A stretch of DNA of 64,000 nucleotides from positions 1 through 64,000 of the IMG/VR virus record IMGVR_UViG_3300028840_004626. The stretch is one strand, 5' to 3'. The translations under genes and the position numbers were made by a program. The notes beneath the pieces were generated by a model, which did not search any database, was not told where the DNA came from, and saw nothing but the letters and a program-made list of their open reading frames with translations. Each line of letters opens with the position of its first letter. The stretch's first letter is position 1. Below are positions 3,694 through 27,579 of this stretch, piece after piece. This DNA comes from a virus.

Positions 3694-3705
3694 GTGGGGA
3701 AGTAC

Positions 3706-4569
3706 ATGTCTGAAGAAAACACTACTGATAAATTAATGAAGCTCAACGGAAGCATAATTAAGTCTGATGGAAGCCACGTAAAGTCTGATTTTTTCAAGTT
3801 TCTTGAGATCAATCTAGATGATTACTCAGATATTGAGTACACCCCAGAAGAGGCCCAGAAGATTCGCTCTCATATGTCTCATCTCTCAACGGGGGCTACA
3901 GCCGTATTGCCCCTCAAGTGTGCGGGGCCTGTTCGCTGCCCATTTGCTGCAAGGTGTCCATTCGTAAAGATAGATAAAGAAAGAAAGAAAAAAGACCCTA
4001 ATGCGAAACAGATGACCCCGGTGACCAAGGATTGCTTAGTGGAGATTAATCTGTTGAACGAGTGGACTAGATTGTATGTAATGGAGTTTGATGTCCCCGA
4101 GAAGAGCTTTTTAGAGCTAATGATGTGTAGAGAGCTGGCAGAGATCGAAGTGATGCTTTGGCGGCTCAACAACAATTTGTCCAAAGAAGGAAATGCAAAT
4201 CTGGTAGACAATGTGGTGATGGGCGTAGATAAAGAGGGCAACCCATTGATGCGCCTAGAGAAGAGCGCTTTCCTAGCAGCAAAAGAGCAACTGACCAATA
4301 GGAAGTCAAAAATCATAAAGGCGATGGTTGGAGATCGACAGGAGAAGTACAAGAAGGAAGCAGCATTGAAGATCAGGGAAGAGAAAGATCCGAGTGTATC
4401 TTCTGCTAAGTTGCGCGGCGAAATCAATCGTCTGCTGAAACAGGCGGAAAGCAAGGTGTTGGCGCTGAAGGAGAGCGAAGGGGATGTCATCGATATCACG
4501 ATGGATCAAATGGACAAGGAGAAGACCGTAACGCCAGAGTCGATAATTGACGAAGTGTCTGAGGAGTAG
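3706..4569 (+). CDS. Cys-cluster protein, putative terminase small subunit
   Basis: CAGPVRCPFAARCP...CLVE Zn-type cluster followed by a helix-hairpin-helix oligomerisation-like region; first gene of the packaging/structural block, upstream of TerL. TerS role is inferred from position and architecture. Confidence 0.5.
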   Translation: MSEENTTDKLMKLNGSIIKSDGSHVKSDFFKFLEINLDDYSDIEYTPEEAQKIRSHMSHLSTGATAVLPLKCAGPVRCPFAARCPFVKIDKERKKKDPNAKQMTPVTKDCLVEINLLNEWTRLYVMEFDVPEKSFLELMMCRELAEIEVMLWRLNNNLSKEGNANLVDNVVMGVDKEGNPLMRLEKSAFLAAKEQLTNRKSKIIKAMVGDRQEKYKKEAALKIREEKDPSVSSAKLRGEINRLLKQAESKVLALKESEGDVIDITMDQMDKEKTVTPESIIDEVSEE

Positions 4570-4577
4570 TGAGTTAG

Positions 4578-7500
4578 TTGCCAATTCGGGATTTCCTGAA
4601 TCTTTCTCAAATCCGACAAGCGACAAGCCCTGACGAATTGCTGAAACGTTTGCAGCTTGGGGCTCAGGCACTTTCTGTACAATTTAGCGAAGAATTCGAG
4701 CCGGAATGGCGCGAACGTGCTGGCAAGTGGGGTATTAGCTACAATCCTAATACTCGAGTACTTAGCGCACCAACCTGGGCCATCCGGTCTAATTTCGAAA
4801 GCCCAGAGGCCATAAAAGAATTATGGGGAGGGCAGAGGCCTGGCGCCGACCGGATTACTCGCTTAGCGCGCGCAGTACAAGCACACGAATTAGCTGAAGC
4901 TTTTTATCTAGAACAATACGGCGCTACTCATCCTCGATTTAGCTCGCATGTGGCGCGTGATGTTATTCGAGCTGAAATAGGCGTAGCCGCGCAGATGGGT
5001 AAGCAAACCCTGTTCGATATGTTGAAATTCAGACAGGTTGAGCTGGATTATATGCAGCAGTCAGGAAGATTCAATCCATCGTTTAGCCCGCCGCGATTTA
5101 CAACATACAAGACAGACATGTTAAGGATCATGCAGGATGTTAGAAATTGGGCAGGAAAGCAATCTGGAACCACGTTTTCTCAACAGCAATTAGCCGAGCT
5201 AAACAAAAATATCATTAGCAATTTTTCTGATTTGCCTATTCACAGATATTACACATCGATGAGCAAAAGACGTATTGGTAAAATCGGGCTGGGAATGGCA
5301 GCAATAGCCGCTGGCTACTATTCTCTTTTTTCTGGATCGGACGATCAATCCAATGTTGTTCAGGGTATGCAGGAGGGCGGCTTTGCATCCCAACTCCGCA
5401 AGCTTGAAACAGACTTTGGTAGCGGATATCAGGGACAAGAGGGCCCATCGTCTTCAACAGCCACCAATATGGCTTTTGGTGCAGTGTTGGGTGGAGCGGC
5501 AGGATTTGGAATGTCTCGTATGCAGGCTCAGGCCATTATCGAAGAAGACCTGAGTGCATATCCTAGATTGCAGGAATTAAGAAAGATGGGCGCCCGTGGG
5601 GGGTTCGCTCTATATGCGCCCGAGTTTACGGAAATTCAGCAAATTCGTAAGCGTATGCCATGGTGGTCTAGGCTCGATCCACAAATGTACAATCCTATTG
5701 AGGCAATGAAGATCCTAAAGACGCCCGAAGAGTTGTTGAGATTTAAGGGTGTTGCCTATCTACATGAACCCCCGAATTTTTCAGAAGAGATTTGGAAACA
5801 GGCGCTTCGATCTAAAAACATCCTGGGTATGTTTGAACCCGAAGTGGGCACAAACAAGTTAGCAACCTATGAGTGGCTGTCTGAACGCCTGGGTGGAGAC
5901 CAGCTCGCATCTCGAATTCATCCACATACGGTTGGATTTGATCGCTTACCTATTGTGCCATCGGCTCATAGGTCTACCCTATTGGCGGAAATTAAAAAAC
6001 TCAATCAGGAATGGCCCCTCATCATAAAACATGCCGAGGGATCTTTACAGAAAGATGTTTATCTAAATGTGGCAAATATTCCCGATGAGGCTCTCGATGA
6101 CATGCTGAAAAACCCCAAAGACTGGGTTGCACAAGCTAAGCTAGATCTTGCGGATGAATTTCGTGTTGTGACAGTAGGGGACAAGCCGGTTTTCACAGTA
6201 CATCGCTGGGGAACCGAAAGAATGAAGCCTTTTACGGAATTTGCCAAGAAGATTCCTGGCCTAGGTCGAGTTCTGGAAGCCAATCGTTTTCCAGAGAACC
6301 TTTTCGGCGTTAGAGACGAAGAACTACGTGGTCGTCTTGAAACTTTCGCAAGCAAGGTATCGAAGCAGCTACCATATGAGGTTGGCGCATTTGACATTGG
6401 ACTTACTACCGAGGGGCAGTTAAAAGTCATTGAGGCCCAGAGATACTTTGGAACAATTAGAAATCCACTAGTTATTGAGCGCATGACCCAGACTCTTACC
6501 GGAGGCCCTTCGTTTTATGGTCGATTAGCTCGGGGTATGGGTGCTGTAGGTGCAGGCATTCTCGTTGGGGCCGGGATGGCAGCACTATTGAGTAGTGATA
6601 CGAATACTGCTGAAATTACCTCAGATCCAAAATTTATTCTGGCCGAAAATAAGAATTTCGATGGGTTTTGGGAAGATGGTATTGCGGCGCAACTTCGCAA
6701 GGCAAATACCCCCTTTGGTTCTGGCGTTAATCAATTTAAAGTATTGCGCGGATTAGTGCGTGGAGCACTGCAGCAATCCAAGGGCGCTGGGCAGAAAATT
6801 AGACAAAAGATTATAGAGAGAGTTGTCACACCCTTTAAAGAAGGTATGCGCGAGAGCATGGGGGCCCCCGCAACTTTTGAAGAAGCGCTACGTCGCGGCA
6901 AGCAAGTGTCTGTTCTTGGCGAAGGTCTGTATGCGGAATCATCTCTTATGAGAACGGTGTTCCAAGGTCAAGAATATCAGTATGTTCGTAAAAGATTGTT
7001 GCCAGATGCTCGTAAACGAGTCGAGGAAATGATTCGTAATCCTAGGGGACGCTATGAGCCCGGGGCCACAGATCTGATGGGTCGTGCAGAGGTTCCGCTT
7101 GAAACATGGCGCAGGTATCTGCGGGGACTGAACCTGGAGACCGAGGCCAATGTAATGCGGCGCATTGAGGACCTCAATATCGCCCCTAAAGTCTATGCCT
7201 CGTCTCGTCGCGAAATATTTATGGAATATATTCCTCATAAAACCCTTGGTAAGGCGATTATGGATGGTGATGACGTTACCCAGGGAATTATGCAGATTCG
7301 CAAGGCTATGGGGCGTCTATCAGAAGAACATAAAATTTGGAACCTAGACCCAACAGAATTTAACATCATGTTTGACCCCAAAAATAAAAAAGCCTTCTGG
7401 TTGGATTGGGGTTTGGCTGAAAGATATGCAAGATATGGGTTTAAGGCACCTCAGGCAACTACGCGGATGCATCAGGTATTTGGCACGTATCTTAAAAGAG

Positions 7501-7859
7501 CTAGAGGGCGCGTTGTATCTAAATCGGCTGCCACAGTTGTTCCTTCTGGCGGGGCTACTGTGGGAGCTGTTCCGGCTGCCCGTACTCAAGCTACAGTTGA
7601 CCTGATGGGGCCAACACAACGTCTTGAGGGGGCAACTGTGCGCGCCATGCCAGTGGGCGAAAACACGGCAGCGCGAGAAGCAGCCGCATTAGCTAAAACT
7701 GTACGTCGCGCAGAAGCATTTCGTGGACACCAGGCAGCTCTATGGGATGCGGCACATAATGGCGGGCAAAAACATACTACTTCGTATGCCAGAAGATTGG
7801 CGCAAGCCCGCGATCCTTTAGGACAAATGCATGATCCGCTTGGGGTAACCAAGAGATAA
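4578..7859 (+). CDS. Polyvalent multi-enzyme protein: HExxE domain + RimK-like ATP-grasp + RIO/Bud32-like protein kinase, separated by repeated linkers
   Basis: HELAE..SSH..E; ATP-grasp motifs NKLATY, PLIIKHAEGS, WVAQ, EFRV, FDI, KVIEAQ; kinase motifs LGEGLYA, VRK, E(alphaC), APKVY, FMEYI, NLDPTEFNI, LDWGLA; two QLRKxxTxFGSG linkers. Confidence 0.8.
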   Translation: MPIRDFLNLSQIRQATSPDELLKRLQLGAQALSVQFSEEFEPEWRERAGKWGISYNPNTRVLSAPTWAIRSNFESPEAIKELWGGQRPGADRITRLARAVQAHELAEAFYLEQYGATHPRFSSHVARDVIRAEIGVAAQMGKQTLFDMLKFRQVELDYMQQSGRFNPSFSPPRFTTYKTDMLRIMQDVRNWAGKQSGTTFSQQQLAELNKNIISNFSDLPIHRYYTSMSKRRIGKIGLGMAAIAAGYYSLFSGSDDQSNVVQGMQEGGFASQLRKLETDFGSGYQGQEGPSSSTATNMAFGAVLGGAAGFGMSRMQAQAIIEEDLSAYPRLQELRKMGARGGFALYAPEFTEIQQIRKRMPWWSRLDPQMYNPIEAMKILKTPEELLRFKGVAYLHEPPNFSEEIWKQALRSKNILGMFEPEVGTNKLATYEWLSERLGGDQLASRIHPHTVGFDRLPIVPSAHRSTLLAEIKKLNQEWPLIIKHAEGSLQKDVYLNVANIPDEALDDMLKNPKDWVAQAKLDLADEFRVVTVGDKPVFTVHRWGTERMKPFTEFAKKIPGLGRVLEANRFPENLFGVRDEELRGRLETFASKVSKQLPYEVGAFDIGLTTEGQLKVIEAQRYFGTIRNPLVIERMTQTLTGGPSFYGRLARGMGAVGAGILVGAGMAALLSSDTNTAEITSDPKFILAENKNFDGFWEDGIAAQLRKANTPFGSGVNQFKVLRGLVRGALQQSKGAGQKIRQKIIERVVTPFKEGMRESMGAPATFEEALRRGKQVSVLGEGLYAESSLMRTVFQGQEYQYVRKRLLPDARKRVEEMIRNPRGRYEPGATDLMGRAEVPLETWRRYLRGLNLETEANVMRRIEDLNIAPKVYASSRREIFMEYIPHKTLGKAIMDGDDVTQGIMQIRKAMGRLSEEHKIWNLDPTEFNIMFDPKNKKAFWLDWGLAERYARYGFKAPQATTRMHQVFGTYLKRARGRVVSKSAATVVPSGGATVGAVPAARTQATVDLMGPTQRLEGATVRAMPVGENTAAREAAALAKTVRRAEAFRGHQAALWDAAHNGGQKHTTSYARRLAQARDPLGQMHDPLGVTKR

Positions 7860-7915: not shown

Positions 7916-8308
7916 TTGGTTGGATGGGCTTTAAAGCGCGCTTTTGGATTAGGCCTGAGTGCCGCTAAGGTTGGCGGTGAGGTTGCGTGGCAGGGTGGCA
8001 AAGCGGGAGTAAAAGCAGCCCCTTATGCTATCCGTGCTGGAATATGGAATGTGGGTCAGTATGCTTCTTTTGCGCTTAAGCATCCAAGAGCTACCATGGG
8101 TATTGGGGCGGCTGGTCTTGGGGCTTACGCCCTGAGTGAAACAATGCCTCAAGATTCCGAGTGGACTGGAGAACAACGCATGGCAGCCGCAGTGGGTCTT
8201 GGCACTCCTTCTACTGGATTTCCTGTAGGACAGGGTGCTACACGGGAAGCTTTTCAGCAAAGTACAGAGGGGTTGGTTTTAGCGCTACACAGAGGGAGAC
8301 GTAGCTAA
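7916..8308 (+). CDS. Gly/Ala-rich membrane-type protein, putative internal virion/ejection protein
   Basis: AGGAGG RBS with TTG start; hydrophobic GxxxG helix MGIGAAGLGAYAL. Confidence 0.65.
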   Translation: MVGWALKRAFGLGLSAAKVGGEVAWQGGKAGVKAAPYAIRAGIWNVGQYASFALKHPRATMGIGAAGLGAYALSETMPQDSEWTGEQRMAAAVGLGTPSTGFPVGQGATREAFQQSTEGLVLALHRGRRS

Positions 8309-8910
8309 TGGCTAGTGCGTGGACATCCTGGGGCAAGGTGCCCGGATCTATTAAGGGCGCAGGTTCCACAATTAAGGGTGGTATCCAACAATATCTAGGC
8401 AGTGCTGCTCATGCCAAGGGAATGAGCTGGGCAGCTGGCGGATATGGGTTTGGCAAAGATATCGCATCTATCCAGAGTAAGGGATGGAGATATTTTGGGC
8501 GCGGAGTAGGCTTTGCCTTTTTAGGGTATGAGGCTTATGCAGGATACCAAAGAGGCGGAATTCTTGGTGCAGCTACGGGGGTTGCTACCCAAGCAGCCAT
8601 CAATTATGGGATTGGGGCAGCATGGGGAGCTATTGGCGGAACTGCTGCGCTAGGAGCTATCGGAACAGCTGCTGCAGTTGCAGCTCCTATCGCCGGAGCG
8701 TGGGCCTACAATAAATATGGGTCACAAGTCGGCAGGGAGACTTTTATGCGACATGCGAGAACTGAGCTTGGGGCTGGGGTTGCAGACCCATTTGGCACCG
8801 TTTCTACGATGAGGCGCAGAAGTGTATCTGCCCTCAATAGTTCAAGATTAAATGGACAAACAGCTCTTGGCAATGAAGCCGCTATGAGCTACAGTCCTTA
8901 TTTTCGCTAG
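8308..8910 (+). CDS. Glycine-zipper membrane-type protein, putative ejection protein
   Basis: Long G/A-rich hydrophobic hairpin (GGILGAATGVA...AAVAAPIAGAW) and basic C-terminus; coupled by TAATG. Confidence 0.7.
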   Translation: MASAWTSWGKVPGSIKGAGSTIKGGIQQYLGSAAHAKGMSWAAGGYGFGKDIASIQSKGWRYFGRGVGFAFLGYEAYAGYQRGGILGAATGVATQAAINYGIGAAWGAIGGTAALGAIGTAAAVAAPIAGAWAYNKYGSQVGRETFMRHARTELGAGVADPFGTVSTMRRRSVSALNSSRLNGQTALGNEAAMSYSPYFR

Positions 8911-9487: not shown

Positions 9488-11509
9488 ATGTCGATTAACC
9501 TCAATCAATGCACATCCGAGTGTAGTAGTTGTATTCGTAGATATATTTCCAAACATCGCCTCAAAAGAGGCGATTCCTTTGATATACCCTGTCACGGTAT
9601 TCCTCTCGAATATTTGCCAGCAGATGTCCGCTCTAGCGTGAGCGGAGATCCAGAACTGGCTATTTCTATGATTGATGCTGTTACGTGGGCTGGTAAATTT
9701 TTAGATTGGCATTGTTATGATCCGATAGGAGAACACTGGAAGCGCAAAAGCTTAGAAGGAAGTATGCCAACTGGCTTAGCACAATACGAAGAGGGGGTGG
9801 CACTAGCAGGGAAATCTGTTTTTAATCGGCCCTATCAGGGAGAGATGCTTAGATGTTCGGCAAAATATAAAGTTTTTCGTATTGGGCGGCAAGCGGGCAA
9901 AACAGAAGTGCTGTGTGTTTCGGTTTTACACAATGTTTTTACTCACAAAAATTTTCGTTGCGTAATTATTGCCCCTTATGATTCTCAGGTTGAGTTGATT
10001 TTTGAACGTTTGCGCACCTTTATTGATAACAATGCAATGTTAAGTAATTCAGTGCGGCGCAAGGTTAAAAAACCTACTCATCAAATTGAATTGCATAATG
10101 GTTCTATTATTATCGGTTTTACAGCCGGTACTAAGTCGAAGCAAGAAGCTGGAGCTTCTCGTGGACAACCTGCACACATGTTGGTATTTGACGAGGCAGA
10201 TTACTTATCTGCTGGCGACTTGAATGCTGCCTTAGCTACCATCACAAACTTTCCCGAAGCAACTGTATGGATGTCATCTACTCCAGCCGGTAAACGAGAA
10301 AAGTTCTTTGAATCATGTCGCGACCCGATGTATCGCGAATTTCATTTTCCATCTCAGATTAACCCGAATTGGACAGAAGAAAGAGAGAGATTCTTTAGAA
10401 GTCAATTGACAGAAGACGGATATAAACATGAAATTCTAGCTGAGTTTGGGGAACAAGAAGAAGGGGTTTATCAGAACAAGTATATTGAATTGGCTCAAGA
10501 TGATTATGACTACGGCGACTATAAGCCCAATCCAAACTGGATTTATATGATGGGGGTTGACTGGAACGACGTCAAGATCGGCACAACTTTAGCCGTAGTT
10601 GGATTTGAGCCTGCTTCTGGCTTATTTCGTTTAGTTGACAAAGTCGTTATGACTCGATCTGAGCGTACCCAATTGTCTGCATGCCAAAAGGTAGCCGAAT
10701 TAAACAGGTTTTGGAATCCAACAATGATTTATGTAGATAAGGGATTTGGCACGACACAGATTGAGGTATTGCAGAAGTTCGGTTACGACTCTCTTGCTGG
10801 CGAAGGAGCAAATTCTCCTAATGCTAGATTGCGTAATATCGTTAAGGGATATGACTTTGGTGGTTCTATTGAAATACGAGATCTGTTCACCAAGCAGCCG
10901 ATTTCTAAAAAGGCGAAGCCATTTCTGATTGAGAATTCGGTGCGTCGTTTTGAACAGCTTACATTTAAGTATCCATCGTCAGATGAGTTATTTACAAAAG
11001 CTCTCCAGGGCTATATAGTTAAAAGGATTACAACTACAGGAGTTCCTGTTTATGAGATGCAGGACGAATCTGTTGGAGATCACTTCCTGGATGCGGTAAA
11101 CTTAGCTCTTGTAGCTTTTACTTTAGAGAAGTCAGCATTTGGGGCTCCGAAGCACGAGGCGCGTATTTCATTTTCTGCTGAGATTGGAGCTATACTTAGG
11201 GGAGACAAAGATCCACGCAAAGCATTGCAAGAAAAAGAAGCTCATCGCCCTAAGATGGGGCGTGCCGCAGCCGTAGAGGGTGGATCGGATAGACTAGTGG
11301 TTCCGGAACATGGCGAATTGCCAATGAATACTGCATCTGTTGATGGGGCCAGGGGGCCAGTAAAGCTATGGTCTTGGCCGGGTTTTGGCAGGGATGCTCC
11401 TAGGCCTAGAGTTAGAAGCCTAAGGGAAGCAATGTCAGATGCATCACAGCGGCTTAATAGACAACCTTCTCGCAGGGGTTCATCCCGTCCGAGGAGAAAA
11501 AATATTTAA
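9488..11509 (+). CDS. terL: Terminase large subunit
   Basis: RPYQ Q-motif, Walker A GRQAGKT, Walker B MLVFDEAD, motif III SSTP, nuclease GVDWN...VDKG...DHFLDA. Confidence 0.95.
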   Translation: MSINLNQCTSECSSCIRRYISKHRLKRGDSFDIPCHGIPLEYLPADVRSSVSGDPELAISMIDAVTWAGKFLDWHCYDPIGEHWKRKSLEGSMPTGLAQYEEGVALAGKSVFNRPYQGEMLRCSAKYKVFRIGRQAGKTEVLCVSVLHNVFTHKNFRCVIIAPYDSQVELIFERLRTFIDNNAMLSNSVRRKVKKPTHQIELHNGSIIIGFTAGTKSKQEAGASRGQPAHMLVFDEADYLSAGDLNAALATITNFPEATVWMSSTPAGKREKFFESCRDPMYREFHFPSQINPNWTEERERFFRSQLTEDGYKHEILAEFGEQEEGVYQNKYIELAQDDYDYGDYKPNPNWIYMMGVDWNDVKIGTTLAVVGFEPASGLFRLVDKVVMTRSERTQLSACQKVAELNRFWNPTMIYVDKGFGTTQIEVLQKFGYDSLAGEGANSPNARLRNIVKGYDFGGSIEIRDLFTKQPISKKAKPFLIENSVRRFEQLTFKYPSSDELFTKALQGYIVKRITTTGVPVYEMQDESVGDHFLDAVNLALVAFTLEKSAFGAPKHEARISFSAEIGAILRGDKDPRKALQEKEAHRPKMGRAAAVEGGSDRLVVPEHGELPMNTASVDGARGPVKLWSWPGFGRDAPRPRVRSLREAMSDASQRLNRQPSRRGSSRPRRKNI

Positions 11510-12684: not shown

Positions 12685-14219
12685 TGGAAATTAAGCGCGT
12701 TGTTAAAACACAGAGTCAGTTGCGCAGAGAACTACATGTTCAAAGCCTTGATGACCTCAAGAATGTTGATATCAACGCTGTTCTTGCGGTTGACCCAGAG
12801 CGTACCGACCTAGGAACAAAATTTCCTGATTGCGCATTAATTGCACGCACTTATGAGCGTGGAGCCCACTTTACACCTACCGAAGCGGCTGTTTTTGCCC
12901 CGTTCAATAGACATATCGAAAATCACAAGATTATGAGTCAGTCTGTTGCTAAGATGCTGAGCACCTACATGTTTAATCCAGAAGATATTGTATCTTCGGA
13001 TGTGCAGAAGCTTGCTGCCAAGGCGGGAATCGAGGTGCCCGGAGGTGCTGATTCGGGAACTGGCGGCAAGACAGACGAAGATCTTCAGTCTCTTAATATC
13101 GGCAAGGAGCAGCACTCGACCAAAAATACCGACAAAGGCGGCGGTGGCAGCAATGCCTTTATGGATTGGCTAAGTGAGTGTATTCCTTGCGATTTACGTC
13201 TTGGGGCATGGATAGAATTTAATCCAAATCTTGATTTGCTTGGTATGCTAGAAAACTTTTTAATGGAGGCTCTCAAGTTTTTGACGGGCATCGGTAATAT
13301 TTTGAGTAACCTAGATCTGTTTGGTGATTTCTGTAAACTCTTAGATCTATTGTCTTTTATGTGTATTCCTGACTTACAGCGTATTATTATGTTGTTTATT
13401 TCTCTTCTTACCCTCGAGGCTCCGAATCTAGATTTCTTAATTGGATTCTTGATGTCCCTAGTGGGCCCGTTATTTAGTGCTATTTTTAGTGGCATCATTG
13501 GGCTCTTTGATCAATTCGTACTGCTTGTTGTTAATCCACTAGATTGCATTGTGGATGCTATCAATCAGCAGTTGGCTAAGTTGCCACATGATCCCACTCA
13601 GCCACCACCACAAATTGGCAAAGATAGCATTTTAGCAGAGACTGCTGCAGGATTAGATAACGCATTACGTACACTTAAGCGCACTCTTGAGGGCGGAATT
13701 GCCACAATCAAAGAAAAACTCGATATGTATCTGGGTGAATTTAAGGCCCTTCTGGGCGAAGTTGGCGGTGGAGATTTTAACTATTTGGTGAAAACTTTCG
13801 AAAAATTAACCATGGTGCGCTTGATTGGTTTTATTATTGCCTTGATTTTGGCTTTAACGAAAGGAGATGTGCAGTGTTCCGGAGGTAAAGCCGAAAAACG
13901 GGAAATTGATGCTTTCTTTGAGAACTATCTAAGTCCTAATGGAGCTTTTGATATTTCTATGGATGATGAGGGGAATATCAACATTTCTGAAAGAGTTCCA
14001 GAACAGGCTGATACGCTAGCATCGATTCCTCAGGCCTTGTCAAATATCGAAAATGTGTTTGAATTTGAGGGGGAGGATGTTATCGTTACCGATGCCATCC
14101 GAGACACTGTATCCGCTCTAATTGAACCAGTTAGAGTGAAGACACCATGCAGGTTAGAGGTTTCTGCTGATGAGGCAGACAAGGTCAATCAATATATTTC
14201 GGAACTGAATATGACATGA
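12684..14219 (+). CDS. Helical, Cys-containing, partly hydrophobic protein (putative virion protein)
   Basis: 511-aa coupled ORF between TerL and portal; CIPCDLR/MCIPDL motifs and hydrophobic helices. Confidence 0.7.
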   Translation: MEIKRVVKTQSQLRRELHVQSLDDLKNVDINAVLAVDPERTDLGTKFPDCALIARTYERGAHFTPTEAAVFAPFNRHIENHKIMSQSVAKMLSTYMFNPEDIVSSDVQKLAAKAGIEVPGGADSGTGGKTDEDLQSLNIGKEQHSTKNTDKGGGGSNAFMDWLSECIPCDLRLGAWIEFNPNLDLLGMLENFLMEALKFLTGIGNILSNLDLFGDFCKLLDLLSFMCIPDLQRIIMLFISLLTLEAPNLDFLIGFLMSLVGPLFSAIFSGIIGLFDQFVLLVVNPLDCIVDAINQQLAKLPHDPTQPPPQIGKDSILAETAAGLDNALRTLKRTLEGGIATIKEKLDMYLGEFKALLGEVGGGDFNYLVKTFEKLTMVRLIGFIIALILALTKGDVQCSGGKAEKREIDAFFENYLSPNGAFDISMDDEGNINISERVPEQADTLASIPQALSNIENVFEFEGEDVIVTDAIRDTVSALIEPVRVKTPCRLEVSADEADKVNQYISELNMT

Positions 14220-16750
14220 AATTTTTAGGCCTAAATATTTCTCTTGACCGGGCAGTTGGGGACCGGGTCACAGTATCTTCAGTCAAGCCAGAATCTGGTA
14301 CGATTCCTGTATCTCAGATTCCTTCTGTCAGGCCACGTGTTTTAAAATACGGACAAAGTTATTCGTCTGGCAGAGGGTCGTTTTCTGCGGGCGAATATGA
14401 TTTGGCCGAAATTGGCAAGATTGAGGACACCGATGGTTATGTGCGGCAGGCTTTTAAGAAGAAAGTCGGCCTCATGTTTAAGGAGGGGGTAGGCTATTCT
14501 GGGCCCGATAAGCGTACAGCGCGCTATGTAAAAACTCGTTTTGCTCAGATCAGTCGCGCCACAGGTATTCCCCACGTTCAGCTCTTAAAACGTGTTGCTC
14601 AAAGTCTCATTCGGGTATCTAACGCTTTTATAATCAAAGTTCGTGACGAAAAGGCATCTGGTGGACGTAAGCGTGTGACTGCAGACGGCAAAGAGCTTAA
14701 GCCGATTGCCGGTCTCTTTCCTGCAGCGCCAGAAACAATGCGTTTTGAGATGAATGAGAATACTGGCAAAATCCTTCGCTGGAAGCAGATGCTTCCGGAC
14801 GGCAAGTTTCGGTTTTTCTCAGTTGATGACGTTGTTCATTTTTGCATTGATAGACGCGAAGGCTTTATTTTTGGCGTGCCTACGCTGATTCCGGTTATTG
14901 ATGACATTCGAGCACTTCGTCAAATCGAAGAAAATGTCGAACTGCTGTTATATCAGTATCTCTTTCCCCTGTTTCATTACAAGGTTGGAACAGAAACAGC
15001 CCCAGCAGGTTTTACAGAAGATGGTCTGCGTGAGATTGAGGTTGTTGAGGAACAGATTCAGTATATGCCAGCTGAGGGAGCTATTGTTACACCGGAACGT
15101 CATGAGATTACCGCCATTGGTGCAGAGGGTAGAGCACTAAGAGCAGAAGGATATCTAGAACATTTCAAAAAGCGTATTTTTGCTGGCCTTGGTGTTTCGC
15201 AGGTGGATATGGGCGATGGGGATACCACTAATCGGGCTACAGCACAAACCATGTCTCGTGCTCTGATTGATACAGTTAAAGATGTTCAGGATGAGCTAGA
15301 AGCGCAATGGGATCACGAGGTTATTTCTGAACTTCTTCTTGAATCTACTTTTGGCGACAGGGTTCTCGATGAAGAGTTTATGGTGCATCTGCAGTTTAAG
15401 GAAATCGATCTCCAGAATAAAATGGAATCGGAAAAACATTCTGTAGAGCTGTTTGAGGGGAATGCGATTACGTGGGATGAGCTTAGGGCTGAGATGGGTC
15501 GCGAACCAATTGAGGTTCCAGAAGACCCGGAAGACCAAGATCCGTCCAAATATCCAGATTGGTTCAATACCCACTGGAAGCTCTTTAAGGAACCAGAAAC
15601 TATTATCAAGGCTGTTGACGAGCCCTATTCTGTAGCCGCAAAAATGGCTGCTGAGGCACGTACACTTGGTGTTGTAACTGGTCAGATTGTGAAATCTAAA
15701 GAAGAAACCGAGGCCTCGCAGCGCGCTCAGGCCGAAGCCGATAGGCAGACCAAGATGGCTGTGGCACAATCACGTCCACGTACACGACAAGACAATTTTG
15801 TAGCTGCTTCTTTTAAACAGCTTGAAGAGGATACGGTTCGTCGCGTTCGGGCAAACTTGATTACGCGTGGCCATATGGGGCCAGAACATATCTTGTCGAT
15901 GGCACGTATTTGGGCTGCCGACACCACAGAGCGTCTGTATTCGGTTGCGGTTACTGAATTAATTCGAGGGTTTAATCTGCAGACCGGTAATCGTTCTTCC
16001 GAGAGCCCAAATCTGATTAGTCAGGGCCGCTATGAATTGCGCGAGCGTATTGAGTTTTTTGTCAATAAGTTGATTCACAATATGGTTGCTTTAGCGGAAC
16101 GTAGAATTGACGCTATCAATGGAAATGTTAAACTACCAGAAGTACAGAAAAAAGCGATGGAAGAAGTACACCTTGCTTTTGATTCTGTACGATGGCGCAC
16201 GAAGCTTATTTGGGATATCGAGCTTCGCAAGGCATATAACTACGGTCGAGTTCTGGGCATGAGATTTCTGGGGCTTGATTATTTGCGACTGGATGCTGCT
16301 AATGGTGCCTGTGAGCAGTGTCAGGCTGTTAATGGCCGTTTGATTGAGGTGGCGGCAGCCAACATTAATGATGTTCCGCCGTTACACCCACATAGTCGAA
16401 TGTCAATGACGGCACTGGTTGCAGAGGATGGTTCGAAATTTGTTCCGCCCCGCAACAAGGGCAAGCCGGCCGTTGAGCAAAACGATCCGTCTCTCAGTAA
16501 GAAAACAGGCGTATGTCCCCAGTGTGGCAATACTGTTACTTTGCAGCCACGATCTGGGGCATATTATTGCATGAAGTGCGTTAAAGCATTTCCCCCAGAA
16601 GACGTTGAGGGGGATGTCGATGATGCGACAAAACTTGAACGTTGTGTATTGTCAGTCAAAGCCCAATTGAGAAAAAAGAATCCAGGCATGAGTGAAAAAG
16701 AGATTAAGACTAGGGCCTTTAAGATTTGCAATGCCCAATTGAAAGGATAG
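14216..16750 (+). CDS. Portal protein fused to a C-terminal MuF (SPP1 gp7-like) domain and Zn ribbon
   Basis: Portal motifs (SNAFIIKVR, DDVVHF, FGVP.LIPV, IFAGLGVS, NRATA, ITWDELRAEMGREP); CEQC...VPPLHPHSR MuF motif; CPQCG..CMKC. Confidence 0.85.
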   Translation: MKFLGLNISLDRAVGDRVTVSSVKPESGTIPVSQIPSVRPRVLKYGQSYSSGRGSFSAGEYDLAEIGKIEDTDGYVRQAFKKKVGLMFKEGVGYSGPDKRTARYVKTRFAQISRATGIPHVQLLKRVAQSLIRVSNAFIIKVRDEKASGGRKRVTADGKELKPIAGLFPAAPETMRFEMNENTGKILRWKQMLPDGKFRFFSVDDVVHFCIDRREGFIFGVPTLIPVIDDIRALRQIEENVELLLYQYLFPLFHYKVGTETAPAGFTEDGLREIEVVEEQIQYMPAEGAIVTPERHEITAIGAEGRALRAEGYLEHFKKRIFAGLGVSQVDMGDGDTTNRATAQTMSRALIDTVKDVQDELEAQWDHEVISELLLESTFGDRVLDEEFMVHLQFKEIDLQNKMESEKHSVELFEGNAITWDELRAEMGREPIEVPEDPEDQDPSKYPDWFNTHWKLFKEPETIIKAVDEPYSVAAKMAAEARTLGVVTGQIVKSKEETEASQRAQAEADRQTKMAVAQSRPRTRQDNFVAASFKQLEEDTVRRVRANLITRGHMGPEHILSMARIWAADTTERLYSVAVTELIRGFNLQTGNRSSESPNLISQGRYELRERIEFFVNKLIHNMVALAERRIDAINGNVKLPEVQKKAMEEVHLAFDSVRWRTKLIWDIELRKAYNYGRVLGMRFLGLDYLRLDAANGACEQCQAVNGRLIEVAAANINDVPPLHPHSRMSMTALVAEDGSKFVPPRNKGKPAVEQNDPSLSKKTGVCPQCGNTVTLQPRSGAYYCMKCVKAFPPEDVEGDVDDATKLERCVLSVKAQLRKKNPGMSEKEIKTRAFKICNAQLKG

Positions 16751-20484: not shown

Positions 20485-21738
20485 ATGTCTAATCAAGTCG
20501 AAATTAAAGACGCAAGCGAGTTTCGTTGCCTTTGGGAAAACAATGGCCAGACTGGCGCAGGGGAAGTTAAGCTTCAGGACGCTCTTAGCGTGCCGAACGC
20601 TCATATGCTGTTCCCCAAAGTCATCTCGAACATTGTAAAAGAAGCCCAAGAGCCACTGCTCGTAGCAACGTCTCTGCTTCAACGGATCAATTTCAGCTTT
20701 GGCCAGACCATTACCTTCCCGGCGGTTGGTGCTCTGGTAGCGGCTGATATTGCCGAAGGTCAAGAGTATCCGGAACGCAGCCTCCAAATGGGTGGAGCGA
20801 CTGTGACGGCTACCATCGGTAAGAGCGGTATTGCCGTTCGCGTTACCGACGAAATGGTACGCTATTCGCAGTTTGACGTAATCGGTATGCATCTCCGTGC
20901 AGCCGGTCGCGCTCTTGCTCGCCACAAAGAGGTTAAGTGTTTCAACTATATCCGCTCAATGGGCGTAACGGCGTTTGATAACCTCAATCCGACTAGCTCT
21001 TTGTTCGGTGTTTGCACCGGTCGCGATCTTAATGGTGCGGCTAACGGTGCCGTAACCATGGACGACATTTTTGATGCTTTTGCACAAATTGTTACCCAGG
21101 GTTATATGCCTAATACTTTGCTTATGCACCCCCTCACCTGGACCATGTTCATTAAGGACGCTCAACTGCGTGCTTTTGTACAGGCCAATGGTGGCGGCGT
21201 GTTCTTCGCAAGTTGGACTGGCAATCCTGCTGGCAAGGCTCCTTGGAGCAATAGCTCGCAGGGTGGTCTTGGTGTGGCTTCTGGTCAGACCATTACCCCG
21301 GGACAGACTTCTGCTGGAGAGACAGCTCCCAGTGGCTTGGCTGCTTCCCAATCTGGTGACTATTCTCAGGTACAAACGGGCGCTCCGGTTCTCCCGAGCT
21401 ACATGAATGTTCCTTTCCGGATCATCGTGAGCCCGTTCGTAACCTTTGACGCTCGTCGCAAGCTTACGGACATTTATATGTTCGATAGCAGCGAACTTGG
21501 CGTTCTCGTCGTAGACGAGGAAGTCATGGTTGAAGAGTTCGACGATCCCAAGGTCGACATTCGGAAAATTAAGCTAAGAGAACGTTATGGTATCGGCATT
21601 CTGAACGAAGGCCAGGCTATTGCAGTTCTGCGGAACGTACACTGCGTGCCCAACGAAATTGCACTGCCTGCTCAAGCTAGTGTTGATGTCTCTGGTTCTA
21701 TTGCTAAGATTCCGCCTGGCAATGCCTTGAGTCTGTAG
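20485..21738 (+). CDS. Major capsid protein (HK97 fold)
   Basis: IAEGQEYPE, KSGIAVRVTDEMVRYSQFDVI..HLRAAGRALAR, PNTLLMHP, KLRERYG; strong RBS; followed by a terminator. Confidence 0.92.
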   Translation: MSNQVEIKDASEFRCLWENNGQTGAGEVKLQDALSVPNAHMLFPKVISNIVKEAQEPLLVATSLLQRINFSFGQTITFPAVGALVAADIAEGQEYPERSLQMGGATVTATIGKSGIAVRVTDEMVRYSQFDVIGMHLRAAGRALARHKEVKCFNYIRSMGVTAFDNLNPTSSLFGVCTGRDLNGAANGAVTMDDIFDAFAQIVTQGYMPNTLLMHPLTWTMFIKDAQLRAFVQANGGGVFFASWTGNPAGKAPWSNSSQGGLGVASGQTITPGQTSAGETAPSGLAASQSGDYSQVQTGAPVLPSYMNVPFRIIVSPFVTFDARRKLTDIYMFDSSELGVLVVDEEVMVEEFDDPKVDIRKIKLRERYGIGILNEGQAIAVLRNVHCVPNEIALPAQASVDVSGSIAKIPPGNALSL

Positions 21739-25692: not shown

Positions 25693-27579
25693 ATGTCGTT
25701 TGAAAATTTGCCTGGCATTTTTCCAAATTGGATTGATGGCAATCTGCAAATTGCATCCGTCAACGAGAATCCCGTAGTGTTGGTTCTCGGTACGTCTCCT
25801 CGGGGAGACACGGAAACGCTTTATAAGGTCAACAGTGTATCTGATGCAGCCCGTGTATTCGGGCGTAGCGATGGTACCCTGGTTCGTGGTCTTTATGAAG
25901 TTGTTGCCGGTGGAGCCGAGAATCTACGTTTATTGCGTGTGGGTGCAACGGCTGCTTCTTTGAGCAATGTTGGTGGCGGTATTACCATCACCACCGTATC
26001 GAAAGATTATGATTCTGGTACTGACTATAATGTATTCTGGGATGATGCAGCAGGTCGGTTGCGTGTATGGCGTGCGTCTGACGACGAACTCGTATACGAC
26101 AACAACCCGACGTATCCTTCTGCAGCAATAGATCTATATGAGGTATCTGTAACTGGATCAGCATCTGGAAATCCGGGGGATATTGGTACCCTGTCATCGC
26201 CGTTGACTCTCAAGGCGGCCCATGGTGTTAGTGGCGCTTCTTATAGTGCCGGCACCGATGGCATTACCTTGAGTCGCATGGAGCTTTTTGAAGCCCTGTA
26301 TCGTGCATATGTAGTATTACAGAATGAAGATCTAGATGTTGTTGTTCCTCGGAACGTATATTTAGATGATTCAAATGTAAAAGATATGACTACGGCACAG
26401 GTTGTGACGCTGAATACGAGTGCTCCATGGGCCCTCACGTCTGCTTATCCAGAACCCGGTTCGTCCTACGATGCTCTTGGCAAAGTATTTGCTCAAGAGT
26501 ATGAGGGCGAATGGTACTTCTGGTGGGATATGGATAATGACGGCGTAGCCGAAATTTTTCCTTCGGCCGGTTCGGCATCCGCATCAACGGATGCTAACGG
26601 TACGGCTCTTGAGGCTGCAGATTTTCACGAAGCTAACTTCGGCTATCAATTAGCGGATTTTTGCTACACTCAATCAGAAGATAACGCTGAGATGATCGGT
26701 GTTATCGGTATGTTGCCGCCAGCTAGCTGGGCTTTGAAGGATGTAAGTAATTGGATCGGTGAACTTCCAACTTATACGGAAGACTCTTCGGGCAACTCTG
26801 TAATCTCTGCTGCTGCCGATAATGGTTCGGGTCTACTTGGTAACAAGTGGATGGCGGGTCGTAAAGGCAATAGTAGCACTGGATTACCTGGCCATATCGT
26901 CAGCGGTATCGATGGACTTGCTTATGGTGGGTTTATCGCAACTGATAATGGTTGGCCAGATGGTTCTCAGCAAGAGGATCGCAATGAGCATCTGATCGAC
27001 ATTGGTAAGTATATCTCTGTCGTAGGTGCACAGGCGGTACTTGCCAATCCAACGAATCCAACTTCATATGCTGCTAGTGGCGCGTCTGTTTATGCCGGAT
27101 TGATCGCATCACTGCCGGCTAACAGTGCTCCAACCAACAAGCTCCAGCCCGGAGTCAGGCTTCCCTTTAGGATTAGCGTGGCCAAGCTGGATAGTCTTGC
27201 TGGATTGGGCTATGTAATGTTTCAACGTAAGACCAAGGGTATCGTCGTTGCTGACGCTCCGACGGCATCCCGCCCAGATAGCGATTATCAACGGTTGACC
27301 ACCGTACGTATTGTTAAGGCGACTATCGACGCAATACGTAATGTTGGCGACAAGTTTATTGGAGAACCGATTACTGGTGCGAGGCTTGCGGCTCTGGAGA
27401 CCGCAATTAATCAGTCCCTGGTGAAATTGCAGAAACTTGAGTTCCTGCAAAGATTCCAGGTTGCTGTAACCTCGACACCTACGCAGCAAGTACAGGGTAA
27501 AGCGGACGTCGAGATGATCCTCGTCCCGGCCTTTGAGCTGCGTCAAATCACCGTGTACGTGTCGCTCGCGGCACAATAG
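25693..27579 (+). CDS. Tail sheath protein
   Basis: N-terminal LPGIF, VLVLGTSPRG; C-terminal LTTVRIV..IRNVGDKFIGEP..VPAFELRQITVYV. Confidence 0.9.
   Translation: MSFENLPGIFPNWIDGNLQIASVNENPVVLVLGTSPRGDTETLYKVNSVSDAARVFGRSDGTLVRGLYEVVAGGAENLRLLRVGATAASLSNVGGGITITTVSKDYDSGTDYNVFWDDAAGRLRVWRASDDELVYDNNPTYPSAAIDLYEVSVTGSASGNPGDIGTLSSPLTLKAAHGVSGASYSAGTDGITLSRMELFEALYRAYVVLQNEDLDVVVPRNVYLDDSNVKDMTTAQVVTLNTSAPWALTSAYPEPGSSYDALGKVFAQEYEGEWYFWWDMDNDGVAEIFPSAGSASASTDANGTALEAADFHEANFGYQLADFCYTQSEDNAEMIGVIGMLPPASWALKDVSNWIGELPTYTEDSSGNSVISAAADNGSGLLGNKWMAGRKGNSSTGLPGHIVSGIDGLAYGGFIATDNGWPDGSQQEDRNEHLIDIGKYISVVGAQAVLANPTNPTSYAASGASVYAGLIASLPANSAPTNKLQPGVRLPFRISVAKLDSLAGLGYVMFQRKTKGIVVADAPTASRPDSDYQRLTTVRIVKATIDAIRNVGDKFIGEPITGARLAALETAINQSLVKLQKLEFLQRFQVAVTSTPTQQVQGKADVEMILVPAFELRQITVYVSLAAQ

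What the first reader, a model, noticed from the sequence alone, without database searches (positions are those of the whole stretch)
5280..6725. Repeated linker (hydrophobic helix + G..E.G.A.QLRK..T.FGSG) punctuates the enzyme modules
Seen: QGMQEGGFASQLRKLETDFGSG (5361-5426) and DGFWEDGIAAQLRKANTPFGSG (6660-6725) are 13/22 identical without gaps. Each follows a Gly/Ala hydrophobic helix (IGLGMAAIAAGYYSLF; MGAVGAGILVGAGMAALL) and falls exactly between enzyme domains. Inference: a modular cassette boundary acting as a proteolytic processing site, a membrane-translocation or packaging signal, or a recombination anchor that lets effector domains be swapped.
Basis: partly seen in the sequence, partly recalled or inferred. 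Interest (0 to 1): 0.75.

Follow-up and report, generated by a model that had tools for sequence, protein, structure and literature searches.

The report
Standard junction peptide in phage polyprotein
The repeated "linker" is real: it is a conserved 38-residue peptide that marks almost every junction between swappable enzyme modules in giant multi-enzyme proteins of an uncultured jumbo-phage lineage, and nobody appears to have described it, though what reads it (probably a processing protease or docking partner) is still unknown.

Summary
Observation confirmed and much enlarged. The two 22-mers (5361-5426, 6660-6725) are 13/22 identical; 100 shuffles never exceed 10/22. They are divergent copies of a 38-aa cassette, FSGkDDxYNTIEGLxHGGhAxxhRKxxTDFGSG[WY]xG. 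It occurs 2-7 times per protein, 583 copies in 197 proteins. All come from metagenomic or viral contigs up to ~200 kb, with no Pfam, PHROG, NCBIfam, PDB or literature match. In 29 IMG/VR contigs it lies in one giant ORF at the same slot as here: Cys-rich 291-aa gene, polyprotein, small Gly-zipper genes, TerL, portal.

Cassettes separate modules of about 250 aa from about 144 sequence families (RIO-like kinases, ATP-grasp-like, a HExxE domain, DEDD exonuclease, SNase, DnaJ). Module order is heavily shuffled. Homology breakpoints fall in or at the cassette.

Conservation is at protein level; synonymous sites are near random. AlphaFold gives the cassette low confidence, with one short helix. Only 36% of copies follow a hydrophobic helix. 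The cassette never ends a protein but sometimes begins one.

Best reading, about 0.45: a linear junction signal read in trans, most likely for proteolytic processing, which also serves as the in-frame crossover point. No protease was identified. An earlier scan note on this same gene called it a polyvalent enzyme string. I rate it a new variant of a known kind.

The parts
4578..7859 (+). Polyvalent 'polyprotein' gene, 1093 aa, TTG start after GAGGAG. Layout: HExxE domain, cassette, ATP-grasp-like module, cassette, kinase, conserved tail.
4578..5282 (+). N-terminal HExxE module (HELAE at 4884-4898). Residues H, E, E, H and E are invariant across relatives. Fold unassigned; possibly a metal-dependent hydrolase.
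5283..5330 (+). Gly/Ala-rich hydrophobic helix 1 (aa 236-251), running directly into cassette 1.
5328..5441 (+). Junction cassette copy 1 (aa 251-288), a full-length match to the 38-aa family model.
5466..5516 (+). Second Gly/Ala-rich hydrophobic stretch (aa 297-313), after the polar spacer that follows cassette 1.
5535..6527 (+). ATP-grasp-like module. The Pfam R2K_2 match is weak (E 0.002, below the cut-off). The module as a whole is homologous to 29 modules elsewhere, at varying positions in their proteins.
6537..6590 (+). Gly/Ala-rich hydrophobic helix 3 (aa 654-671).
6648..6740 (+). Junction cassette copy 2. It is divergent: the FSGxDD head is lost and the core N-x-F-D-G...QLRK..T.FGSG is kept (model positions 11-35, aa 694-718).
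6867..7544 (+). RIO1-like protein-kinase-fold module. AF2 pLDDT is above 90. The top Foldseek hit is A. fulgidus Rio1, E 4e-9.
7656..7802 (+). Conserved C-terminal tail helix with the motif ..W..A.NGG+.H (7710-7775). It is found at the C-terminus of nearly all complete relatives and nowhere else in these genomes.

Best explanation
The repeat is a standardised junction cassette. It is a ~38-residue, largely unstructured peptide with one short amphipathic helix (h-A-x-x-h-R-K), bracketed by invariant Gly residues and ending in F-G-S-G. It is placed between successive enzyme modules of a giant polyvalent protein encoded in the packaging/head gene block of a lineage of uncultured jumbo myoviruses. 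Shown here: it is under protein-level selection, it is the best-conserved part of these proteins, it delimits units of about 250 aa that are exchanged as blocks, and exchange breakpoints lie in or at it. Inferred: all copies in a genome are read in trans by one conserved phage factor. That factor is most likely a processing protease that cuts the precursor into its modules, probably near the FGSG end, so that each downstream product starts around G-[WY]-x-G. Because every junction carries the same in-frame peptide, any crossover inside it yields a functional chimera. The cassette therefore also acts as the evolutionary splice point for module shuffling.
For: The family is large and the motif repeats within proteins: 177 proteins match even a crude two-copy profile; 212 clusters match the better profile; the family model finds 583 copies in 197 proteins; each of 29 viral contigs carries the copies in one ORF at a syntenic slot; a complete 191-kb relative has them in only that ORF. 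The cassette is far better conserved than the modules: mean column identity is 66% for the cassette against 16% for kinase modules, and P0002 and P0003 are alignable almost only at cassettes. Selection acts on the protein, not the DNA: identity at 4-fold synonymous sites is 0.44 within a genome and 0.38 between genomes, against 0.33 expected, and the two window copies share 49 of 114 nt. The cassette looks like a linear motif: its pLDDT is 34-56 in two AF2 runs, although 11-12 sequences covered its columns, and only a 9-residue helix is predicted, while the adjacent kinase core scores above 90. Module exchange maps to the cassette: modules fall into about 144 families in shuffled orders; cassette columns 1-8 and 14-17 co-vary with the upstream module, columns 34-38 with the downstream module, and columns 18-33 with neither; in 55 junctions a 55-92% identical module abuts an unrelated one, and in the ten junctions displayed residue by residue identity stops in or at the cassette. 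A common reader is suggested by within-genome co-variation: copies within one protein resemble each other at variable core positions more than copies in other proteins, 0.29 against 0.20, reached by 0 of 500 permutations. The cassette is polar in position: never within 38 aa of a C-terminus (0 of 197) but within 27 aa of the N-terminus in 12 of 197 proteins. Two phages provide a natural deletion: they carry a single-module protein in the slot that starts MAGWR[KR].L, which aligns with the ..FGSGWRGL end of the cassette in 87-88% identical two-module relatives. Thirty-three tandem cassette pairs lie only 6-46 aa apart, and in at least one displayed pair (P0018) the spacer is a hydrophobic helix; such segments would be excised as small peptides if the cassettes are cut. 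The concept that polyvalent phage proteins are processed into units comes from Iyer et al. 2017 (PMC5512222).
Against: No cleavage product has been observed, and no protease can be tied to the cassette. Pfam S77 and S78 prohead proteases are absent from this contig and from 5 relatives, one of them complete. A ClpP-like gene occurs in only 2 of 5 relatives and lies far from the head genes. The HExxE domain, a conceivable cis-peptidase, is present in only 50% of complete proteins and has no zincin fold match. Thirty-eight conserved residues is far more than a typical protease site needs. An N-terminal cassette with only 2-11 residues before it has nothing to release. This window's contig is about 50% complete by CheckV, so absences in it are weak evidence.
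Confidence: 0.45

Rival explanations
1. Docking or leader peptide without obligatory cleavage. Each cassette is an N-terminal leader for the module that follows. Its amphipathic helix binds a common partner, such as a capsid interior or scaffold component, the portal, an ejection-channel protein or a chaperone. This would load or thread the string of enzymes, in the manner of the capsid-targeting sequence of T4 internal proteins.
For: The cassette can head a protein but never ends one, 12 against 0 of 197. It has an amphipathic helix in an otherwise disordered segment. Variable positions co-vary within a genome. The gene lies inside the packaging/head block, next to conserved small Gly-zipper proteins.
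Against: Single-module relatives in the same slot lack any cassette yet keep the C-terminal tail. The tail, not the cassette, is therefore the constant feature expected of a packaging signal. A complete genome has the motif in no other protein. No partner has been identified.
Confidence: 0.25
2. Pure recombination anchor. The cassette is kept because its DNA provides homology for exchanging modules, and the peptide has no function of its own.
For: Breakpoints map to the cassette. Cassette DNAs share exact runs of median 8 nt, 95th percentile 14 and maximum 29. Random in-frame windows of the same genes share 3, 5 and 9.
Against: Synonymous sites are almost randomised (0.38-0.44 against 0.33 expected), and the two window copies are only 43% identical in DNA. 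Six residues are invariant and six more are at least 90% conserved across 49 diverse copies. This is amino-acid selection that a DNA signal does not require.
Confidence: 0.08
3. Membrane-insertion or translocation signal. The hydrophobic helix plus cassette anchors or threads the protein through the host membrane during ejection.
For: A hydrophobic 15-mer precedes 36% of copies against a background of 6%, and 68% of first copies. Some copies sit in a helix-loop-helix arrangement, 19 of 450. Gly-zipper proteins are encoded next door.
Against: Sixty-four per cent of copies have no helix. P0003 copy 3 follows a coiled coil. Three spans in P0002 would separate the ATP-grasp and kinase modules across a membrane. 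The helices have low AF2 confidence.
Confidence: 0.07
4. Self-acting separator. The cassette cleaves itself, for example through the invariant Asn followed by Thr, or it makes the ribosome skip a bond as 2A peptides do in eukaryotic viruses.
For: The Asn is invariant, and Tyr or His precedes it with Thr after it. No protease was found. The motif's 38-aa length is broadly that of nascent-chain-acting peptides (own knowledge).
Against: No structured catalytic environment is predicted. There is no Pro-containing arrest motif. The divergent copy 2 lacks half of the motif. No precedent exists in bacteria (own knowledge).
Confidence: 0.05
5. Phospho-acceptor or regulatory site for the protein's own kinase module, using the conserved R-K-x-x-T and F-G-S-G.
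For: Eighty-seven per cent of complete proteins carry a RIO-like kinase. Thr28 is 95% conserved and Ser32 is invariant.
Against: Thirteen per cent of complete proteins have cassettes but no kinase. Conservation extends well beyond a phosphosite.
Confidence: 0.05

Closest known systems
Polyvalent proteins of phages and conjugative elements (Iyer, Burroughs, Anand, de Souza, Aravind 2017, PMC5512222)
   Same: These are giant single polypeptides that string 2-15 enzymatic domains, including kinases, nucleases and peptidases. They are encoded next to virion or packaging genes. They are proposed to enter the host with the DNA and to be processed into units. Mosaic architectures are typical.
   Different: That paper's text never uses the words linker or interdomain, and the passages I read describe no conserved inter-domain peptide. 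Its hallmark MuF, SNF2 and HExxH-MPTase domains were not detected here. The kinase here is RIO-like with a full core.
Pre-toxin junction motifs of polymorphic toxins: VENN in CdiA, PxxxxDPxGL in Rhs/YD, PT-HINT (own knowledge; concept cited in PMC5512222)
   Same: A short conserved peptide marks the border between a constant part and swappable toxin modules. It coincides with recombination breakpoints, and in Rhs with a proteolytic cut.
   Different: Those proteins have one junction each; here there are up to seven. They belong to bacterial secretion systems, not phages. The sequences are unrelated. Here the motif separates modules on both sides, with no constant region other than a short C-terminal tail.
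T4 capsid-targeting sequence with gp21 cleavage, and multi-site processing of phiKZ inner-body proteins by gp175 (own knowledge)
   Same: A short leader or consensus site decides packaging and cutting of proteins carried in a myovirus head. P1 is Glu in both systems, and the cassette has a well-conserved I-E-G.
   Different: Those sites are 3-10 residues (LxE; S/A/G-x-E) and occur in many head proteins. This cassette is 38 residues and confined to one gene. No S77 or S78 protease was detected.
Polyprotein junctions of eukaryotic RNA viruses: 3C/NIa Q|G sites and 2A peptides (own knowledge)
   Same: The same junction signal is repeated between functionally unrelated products of one ORF.
   Different: Different virus realm and host. 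No sequence similarity. Cleavage is not demonstrated here.

Membership tests
Polyvalent proteins (Iyer et al. 2017) | Two or more unrelated catalytic or effector domains in one polypeptide | tested here: met
   Kinase fold. ATP-grasp-like and HExxE modules. Relatives add SNase, RNase_T exonuclease, DnaJ and other domains.
Polyvalent proteins (Iyer et al. 2017) | Encoded by a phage or plasmid, linked to virion or late genes | tested here: met
   The gene lies upstream of TerL, portal, MCP and sheath. The same synteny holds in 29 IMG/VR contigs.
Polyvalent proteins (Iyer et al. 2017) | A processing metallopeptidase (MPTase, HExxH) or MuF anchor domain in the protein | tested here: inconclusive
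   No Pfam hit. The HExxE domain with invariant H, E, E, H and E has no significant fold or sequence match and occurs in only half of the complete proteins.
Polyvalent proteins (Iyer et al. 2017) | Delivered into the host with the DNA | not testable with these tools
   Requires virion proteomics or infection assays.
Protease processing site | Observed cleavage products, or termini at the motif | not testable with these tools
   There is only an indirect hint. Natural single-module proteins begin at the position equivalent to the cassette's FGS|GW end.
Protease processing site | A cognate protease that co-occurs with the motif | tested here: inconclusive
   S77 and S78 gave no hits in G000 or in 5 relatives, one of them complete. 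ClpP-like genes occur in 2 of 5. Divergent proteases cannot be excluded.
Recombination anchor (VENN-like) | Homology breakpoints between related proteins coincide with the motif | tested here: met
Recombination anchor (VENN-like) | DNA-level conservation beyond what the peptide requires | tested here: not met
   Identity at 4-fold sites is 0.38-0.44 against 0.33 expected. Only short microhomology is present.
Transmembrane or signal-anchor plus motif | A hydrophobic helix accompanies every copy | tested here: not met
   160 of 450 copies have one: 68% of first copies and 20% of later ones.
Folded protein domain (Pfam, PDB) | Match to a described family, or a confident autonomous fold | tested here: not met
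   No Pfam, PHROG or NCBIfam hit on proteins with up to 6 copies. The profile has 0 PDB sequence hits at E<=10. Cassette pLDDT is 34-56, mostly below 50.

The most novel reading that the evidence does not exclude
These jumbo phages make a true polyprotein with one universal, portable signal at every junction. A dedicated but still unidentified phage factor would release up to eight enzymes, plus small hydrophobic peptides excised from between tandem cassettes, from one precursor. The standard connector would let the phage swap enzymes in frame like cartridges. That would be a dsDNA-phage counterpart of RNA-virus polyprotein processing and a natural plug-and-play effector array.
Probability: 0.4. 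Interest if true: 0.85.

Novelty: new variant of a known kind. Interest (0 to 1): 0.7.

Why it matters
Multi-enzyme polyvalent proteins are thought to be a phage's first strike on the host, but how one chain becomes several working enzymes is an open question. A single, strongly conserved junction peptide present in about 200 such proteins offers three things.

- It gives a concrete handle. It can be mutated, used as bait to find its reader, and searched for in metaproteomes.
- It gives exact module boundaries for more than 100 uncharacterised effector families.
- It documents a mechanism of in-frame domain shuffling.

If it proves to be a portable cleavage or docking tag, it would also be a useful tool for building multi-enzyme fusions in bacteria.

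Tried and rejected
- tblastn of P0002 and of a canonical five-cassette relative against 50,697 GenBank phages gave no match, so no cultured carrier is known.
- The first viral-contig scan with the two window copies alone found nothing, because the patterns were too window-specific. A hand-made degenerate DNA pattern (YNTIEG, 16 codons, FGSG) then found 29 contigs.
- A GTDB genome scan found no confirmed copy in 185k prokaryote genomes, so there is no prophage or host clue.
- Foldseek and VIA-align on the HExxE N-domain returned only generic helical matches, E above 0.7 and Z up to 6. A profile search against PDB found nothing relevant.
- The 291-aa upstream protein was considered as a protease. 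It has conserved Cys residues but no invariant His, and no PDB match, so it was rejected as an obvious protease.
- An ESM Atlas search with the cassette segment gave an uninformative hit at 0.76.
- Literature searches for the motif strings and for linkers in polyvalent proteins found nothing relevant.
- A cis-kinase or cis-HExxE requirement was rejected because neither module is universal.
- A helix-cassette-helix hairpin as the general form was rejected, at 19 of 450 copies.
The gene contexts of proteins that start with a cassette (P0175-P0177, P0182) therefore could not be inspected. Scans for related loci in viral contigs found only cassette-less or internal-cassette relatives.
Full report
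**Observation.** The finding lies in one ORF, 4578-7859 (+), 1093 aa. The two 22-mers are at aa 262-283 and 695-716 and are 13/22 identical without gaps. In 100 shuffles of the protein the best ungapped 22-mer self-match was 7-10. Each is preceded by a Gly/Ala-rich hydrophobic stretch, aa 236-251 and 654-671. No other copy exists in the 94.5-kb genome. The genome is an IMG/VR virus record that CheckV rates about 50% complete.

**Context.** The window is a myovirus-type structural region. TerL is at 9488-11509, portal at 14216-16750, major capsid protein at 20485-21738 and sheath at 25693-27579. TerL is at most 33% identical to any GenBank phage; the nearest are the 177-kb Moorella phage MTATph1 and jumbo phages of Bacillus (0305phi8-36 group) and Acinetobacter.

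The protein has three modules:
- an N-terminal domain with HELAE;
- an ATP-grasp-like module, with a weak Pfam R2K_2 match at E 0.002, below the cut-off;
- a kinase, modelled at pLDDT above 90 and matching A. fulgidus Rio1 by Foldseek at E 4e-9.

**The repeat is a family-wide cassette.**
- The only word-search relative, P0003 (1773 aa), aligns to P0002 essentially only at the repeat and has three fuller copies.
- A profile of the two window copies, run against 1.84 billion proteins, found 177 proteins at E<=1e-3. Most are 500-2400 aa with 2-6 matched stretches.
- From 309 strict copies the consensus is FSGkDDxYNTIEGLxHGGhAxxhRKxxTDFGSG[WY]xG.
- In 49 diverse copies G13, G18, R24, F30, G31 and S32 are invariant. 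N9, I11, L14, A20, T28 and G33 are at least 90% conserved. Mean column identity is 66%, against 16% in an alignment of the adjacent kinase modules.
- The window's copy 1 is a full match at 57 bits. Copy 2 keeps positions 11-35 at 30 bits.
- With the better profile, a word-indexed search of 5.8 billion proteins listed 212 clusters. Their contigs reach about 200 kb, and the sources name them only 'hypothetical' or 'Bud32/Ser-Thr kinase'.
- In all, the model finds 583 copies in 197 proteins.
- No Pfam, PHROG or NCBIfam model covers it. No PDB sequence matches its profile at E<=10. Motif strings are absent from the literature library.
- It is absent from GenBank phages and from 185k prokaryote genomes.

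**Genomic setting.** A degenerate DNA pattern found 29 IMG/VR contigs of 17-191 kb. Each has one large ORF carrying the cassettes, and the ORF sits in the same slot as in the window. The order is a conserved Cys-rich protein (291 aa in the window), the polyprotein, small Gly-zipper genes, TerL and portal. In a complete 191-kb relative with terminal repeats, all four matches fall in that one ORF.

**What the cassette separates.**
- Cutting the proteins at cassettes gives 703 segments with a median of 250 aa. The segments of 60 aa or more fall into about 144 sequence families.
- The commonest families are kinase modules (133), a HExxE domain (76 modules in 65 of 178 proteins, with the motif kept in 72 of 76) and ATP-grasp-like modules (29). 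An N-terminal DEDD exonuclease is also frequent.
- Pfam additionally sees SNase, RNase_T, RNase_H_2, DnaJ and an intein.
- The same module family appears at different ranks in different proteins. For example, the ATP-grasp module is first in P0010, second in P0002 and fifth in P0004.
- Homology to P0002's ATP-grasp module spans the whole inter-cassette segment, residues about 10-376 of 395.
- Nearly all complete proteins also share a C-terminal tail motif..W..A.NGG+.H, which is not found in other ORFs.

**Tests of the proposed roles.**

1. DNA or protein signal. At 4-fold synonymous sites cassette copies agree 0.44 within a genome and 0.38 between genomes, against 0.33 expected. The window copies share 49 of 114 nt. 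Selection is therefore on the peptide. Cassette DNAs still share short exact runs, with median 8 nt, 95th percentile 14 and maximum 29. Control windows share 3, 5 and 9.

2. Exchange points. I compared pairs of cassettes from different proteins that share only the upstream or only the downstream module. Columns 1-8 and 14-17 follow the upstream module, with +0.08 to +0.19 identity. Columns 34-38 follow the downstream module, with +0.07 to +0.48. Columns 18-33 follow neither, apart from column 25, which follows the downstream module at +0.18. Fifty-five concrete junctions join a 55-92% identical module to an unrelated one. In the ten junctions displayed residue by residue, identity ends before, inside or right after the cassette.

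3. Structure. Two AlphaFold runs included a cassette, with 11-12 sequences covering its columns. They gave pLDDT 34-56 and only a short helix over h-A-x-x-L-R-K. The neighbouring domains were confident. The cassette behaves as a linear motif, not as a domain or a cap on the modules.

4. Hydrophobic helix. A hydrophobic 15-mer lies within 35 aa upstream of 160 of 450 copies. That is 68% of first copies and 20% of later ones, against a background of 6%. It is associated with the cassette but is not part of it.

5. A common reader. Copies within one protein are more alike at variable core positions than copies from different proteins, 0.29 against 0.20, reached by 0 of 500 permutations.

6. Polarity. 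No cassette lies within 38 aa of a C-terminus (0 of 197), but 12 of 197 lie within 27 aa of an N-terminus.

7. Natural deletions. In two viral contigs the slot holds a 300 or 308-aa single-module protein with the tail and no cassette. It begins MAGWR[KR].L, which aligns to the ..FGSGWRGL end of the cassette in 87-88% identical two-module relatives.

8. Tandem cassettes. Thirty-three pairs are 6-46 aa apart, and in at least one displayed pair (P0018) the spacer is a hydrophobic helix.

**Search for a reader.**
- Pfam prohead proteases S77 and S78 gave no hit in this contig or in five relatives.
- A ClpP-like gene occurs in two of the five, about 45 kb from the head genes in the complete relative.
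- The HExxE domain has invariant H, E, E, H and E residues suggestive of a metal site. It has no significant fold or sequence match and is present in only half of 68 complete proteins. The kinase is present in 87%.
- The upstream Cys-rich protein has no invariant His and no PDB match.

**Interpretation.** It is shown that the repeat is a conserved, protein-level junction peptide that delimits swappable modules in a phage polyvalent protein, and that module exchange happens through it.

It is inferred that a common trans-acting factor reads it. I favour proteolytic processing, at about 0.45, for these reasons:
- the signal sits at essentially every junction whatever the modules are;
- it is disordered;
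- it is dispensable when only one module is present;
- module-specific sequence begins immediately after FGSG;
- polyvalent proteins are expected to need separation into units (PMC5512222).

A docking or leader role without cleavage is the main rival, at about 0.25. It is favoured by the N-terminal occurrences and by the length of the motif. A DNA-only recombination anchor, a membrane signal, self-cleavage or ribosomal skipping, and a phosphosite are each unlikely.

**Comparison with known systems.** The protein fits the polyvalent-protein concept. It lacks that concept's hallmark MuF and HExxH-peptidase domains. That paper's text never uses the words linker or interdomain, and the passages I read describe no conserved inter-domain motif. 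Functionally the cassette most resembles the pre-toxin junction motifs of polymorphic toxins, VENN and DPxGL, but it is repeated up to seven times per chain. It also resembles the leader and cleavage signals of T4 and phiKZ head proteins, from which it differs in length, sequence and restriction to one gene. These resemblances rest on my own knowledge.

Another note (e1-6063326) pointed to the Gly-zipper neighbours and a shared C-terminal motif. I confirmed that the tail is family-wide, but not that the 130-aa neighbour shares it.

**Verdict.** I rate it a new variant of a known kind, with interest 0.7.

Noticed in passing
window 3694-4569 (+); L018:3551-5329 (-): A 291-aa protein with conserved Cys residues (C..G...CPFA...CP...C..E) and a conserved C-terminal DRQEKYKKEAALK block lies immediately upstream of the polyprotein in at least 17 related contigs. 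It has no Pfam, PHROG or PDB match. In L018 the homologue is 592 aa, with an insertion ending ..THN directly before the invariant Cys, which looks like an intein. It may be a small terminase or another essential packaging factor.
   Followed up: partly
window 7710-7775 (+): The C-terminal tail motif (..W..A.NGG+.H on a confident helix) closes nearly all complete polyproteins, including cassette-less single-module ones. It is a better candidate for a packaging or anchoring signal than the cassette.
   Followed up: partly
window 4884-5000 (+): The HExxE domain has invariant H, E, E, H and E residues. It occurs in 76 modules of 65 proteins, often as the penultimate or last module before the conserved tail. 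Neither Foldseek nor VIA-align gave a fold match. It may be a new metal-dependent hydrolase.
   Followed up: partly
L016:5654-8710, L022:317-3445, L027:2414-5584, L032:10386-13394: The TerL homologues in several relatives are about 1000-aa open frames, against 673 aa in the window. This suggests inteins or other insertions in the large terminase.
   Followed up: no
L031 (G001:C1:114445-114945), L030 (G005:C1:34711-35229): ClpP-like protease genes (E 6e-28 and 3e-41) occur in two relatives, far from the head module. They are not found in three other, incomplete relatives.
   Followed up: partly
P0023 (protein): One polyprotein carries an intein with a LAGLIDADG endonuclease inside a module (Pfam Intein_splicing and LAGLIDADG_3).
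   Followed up: no
window 8308-8910 (+): The 200-aa Gly/Ala-rich protein downstream of the polyprotein is conserved in 14 related contigs at the same position. The 130-aa and 181-aa neighbours are much less conserved.
   Followed up: partly
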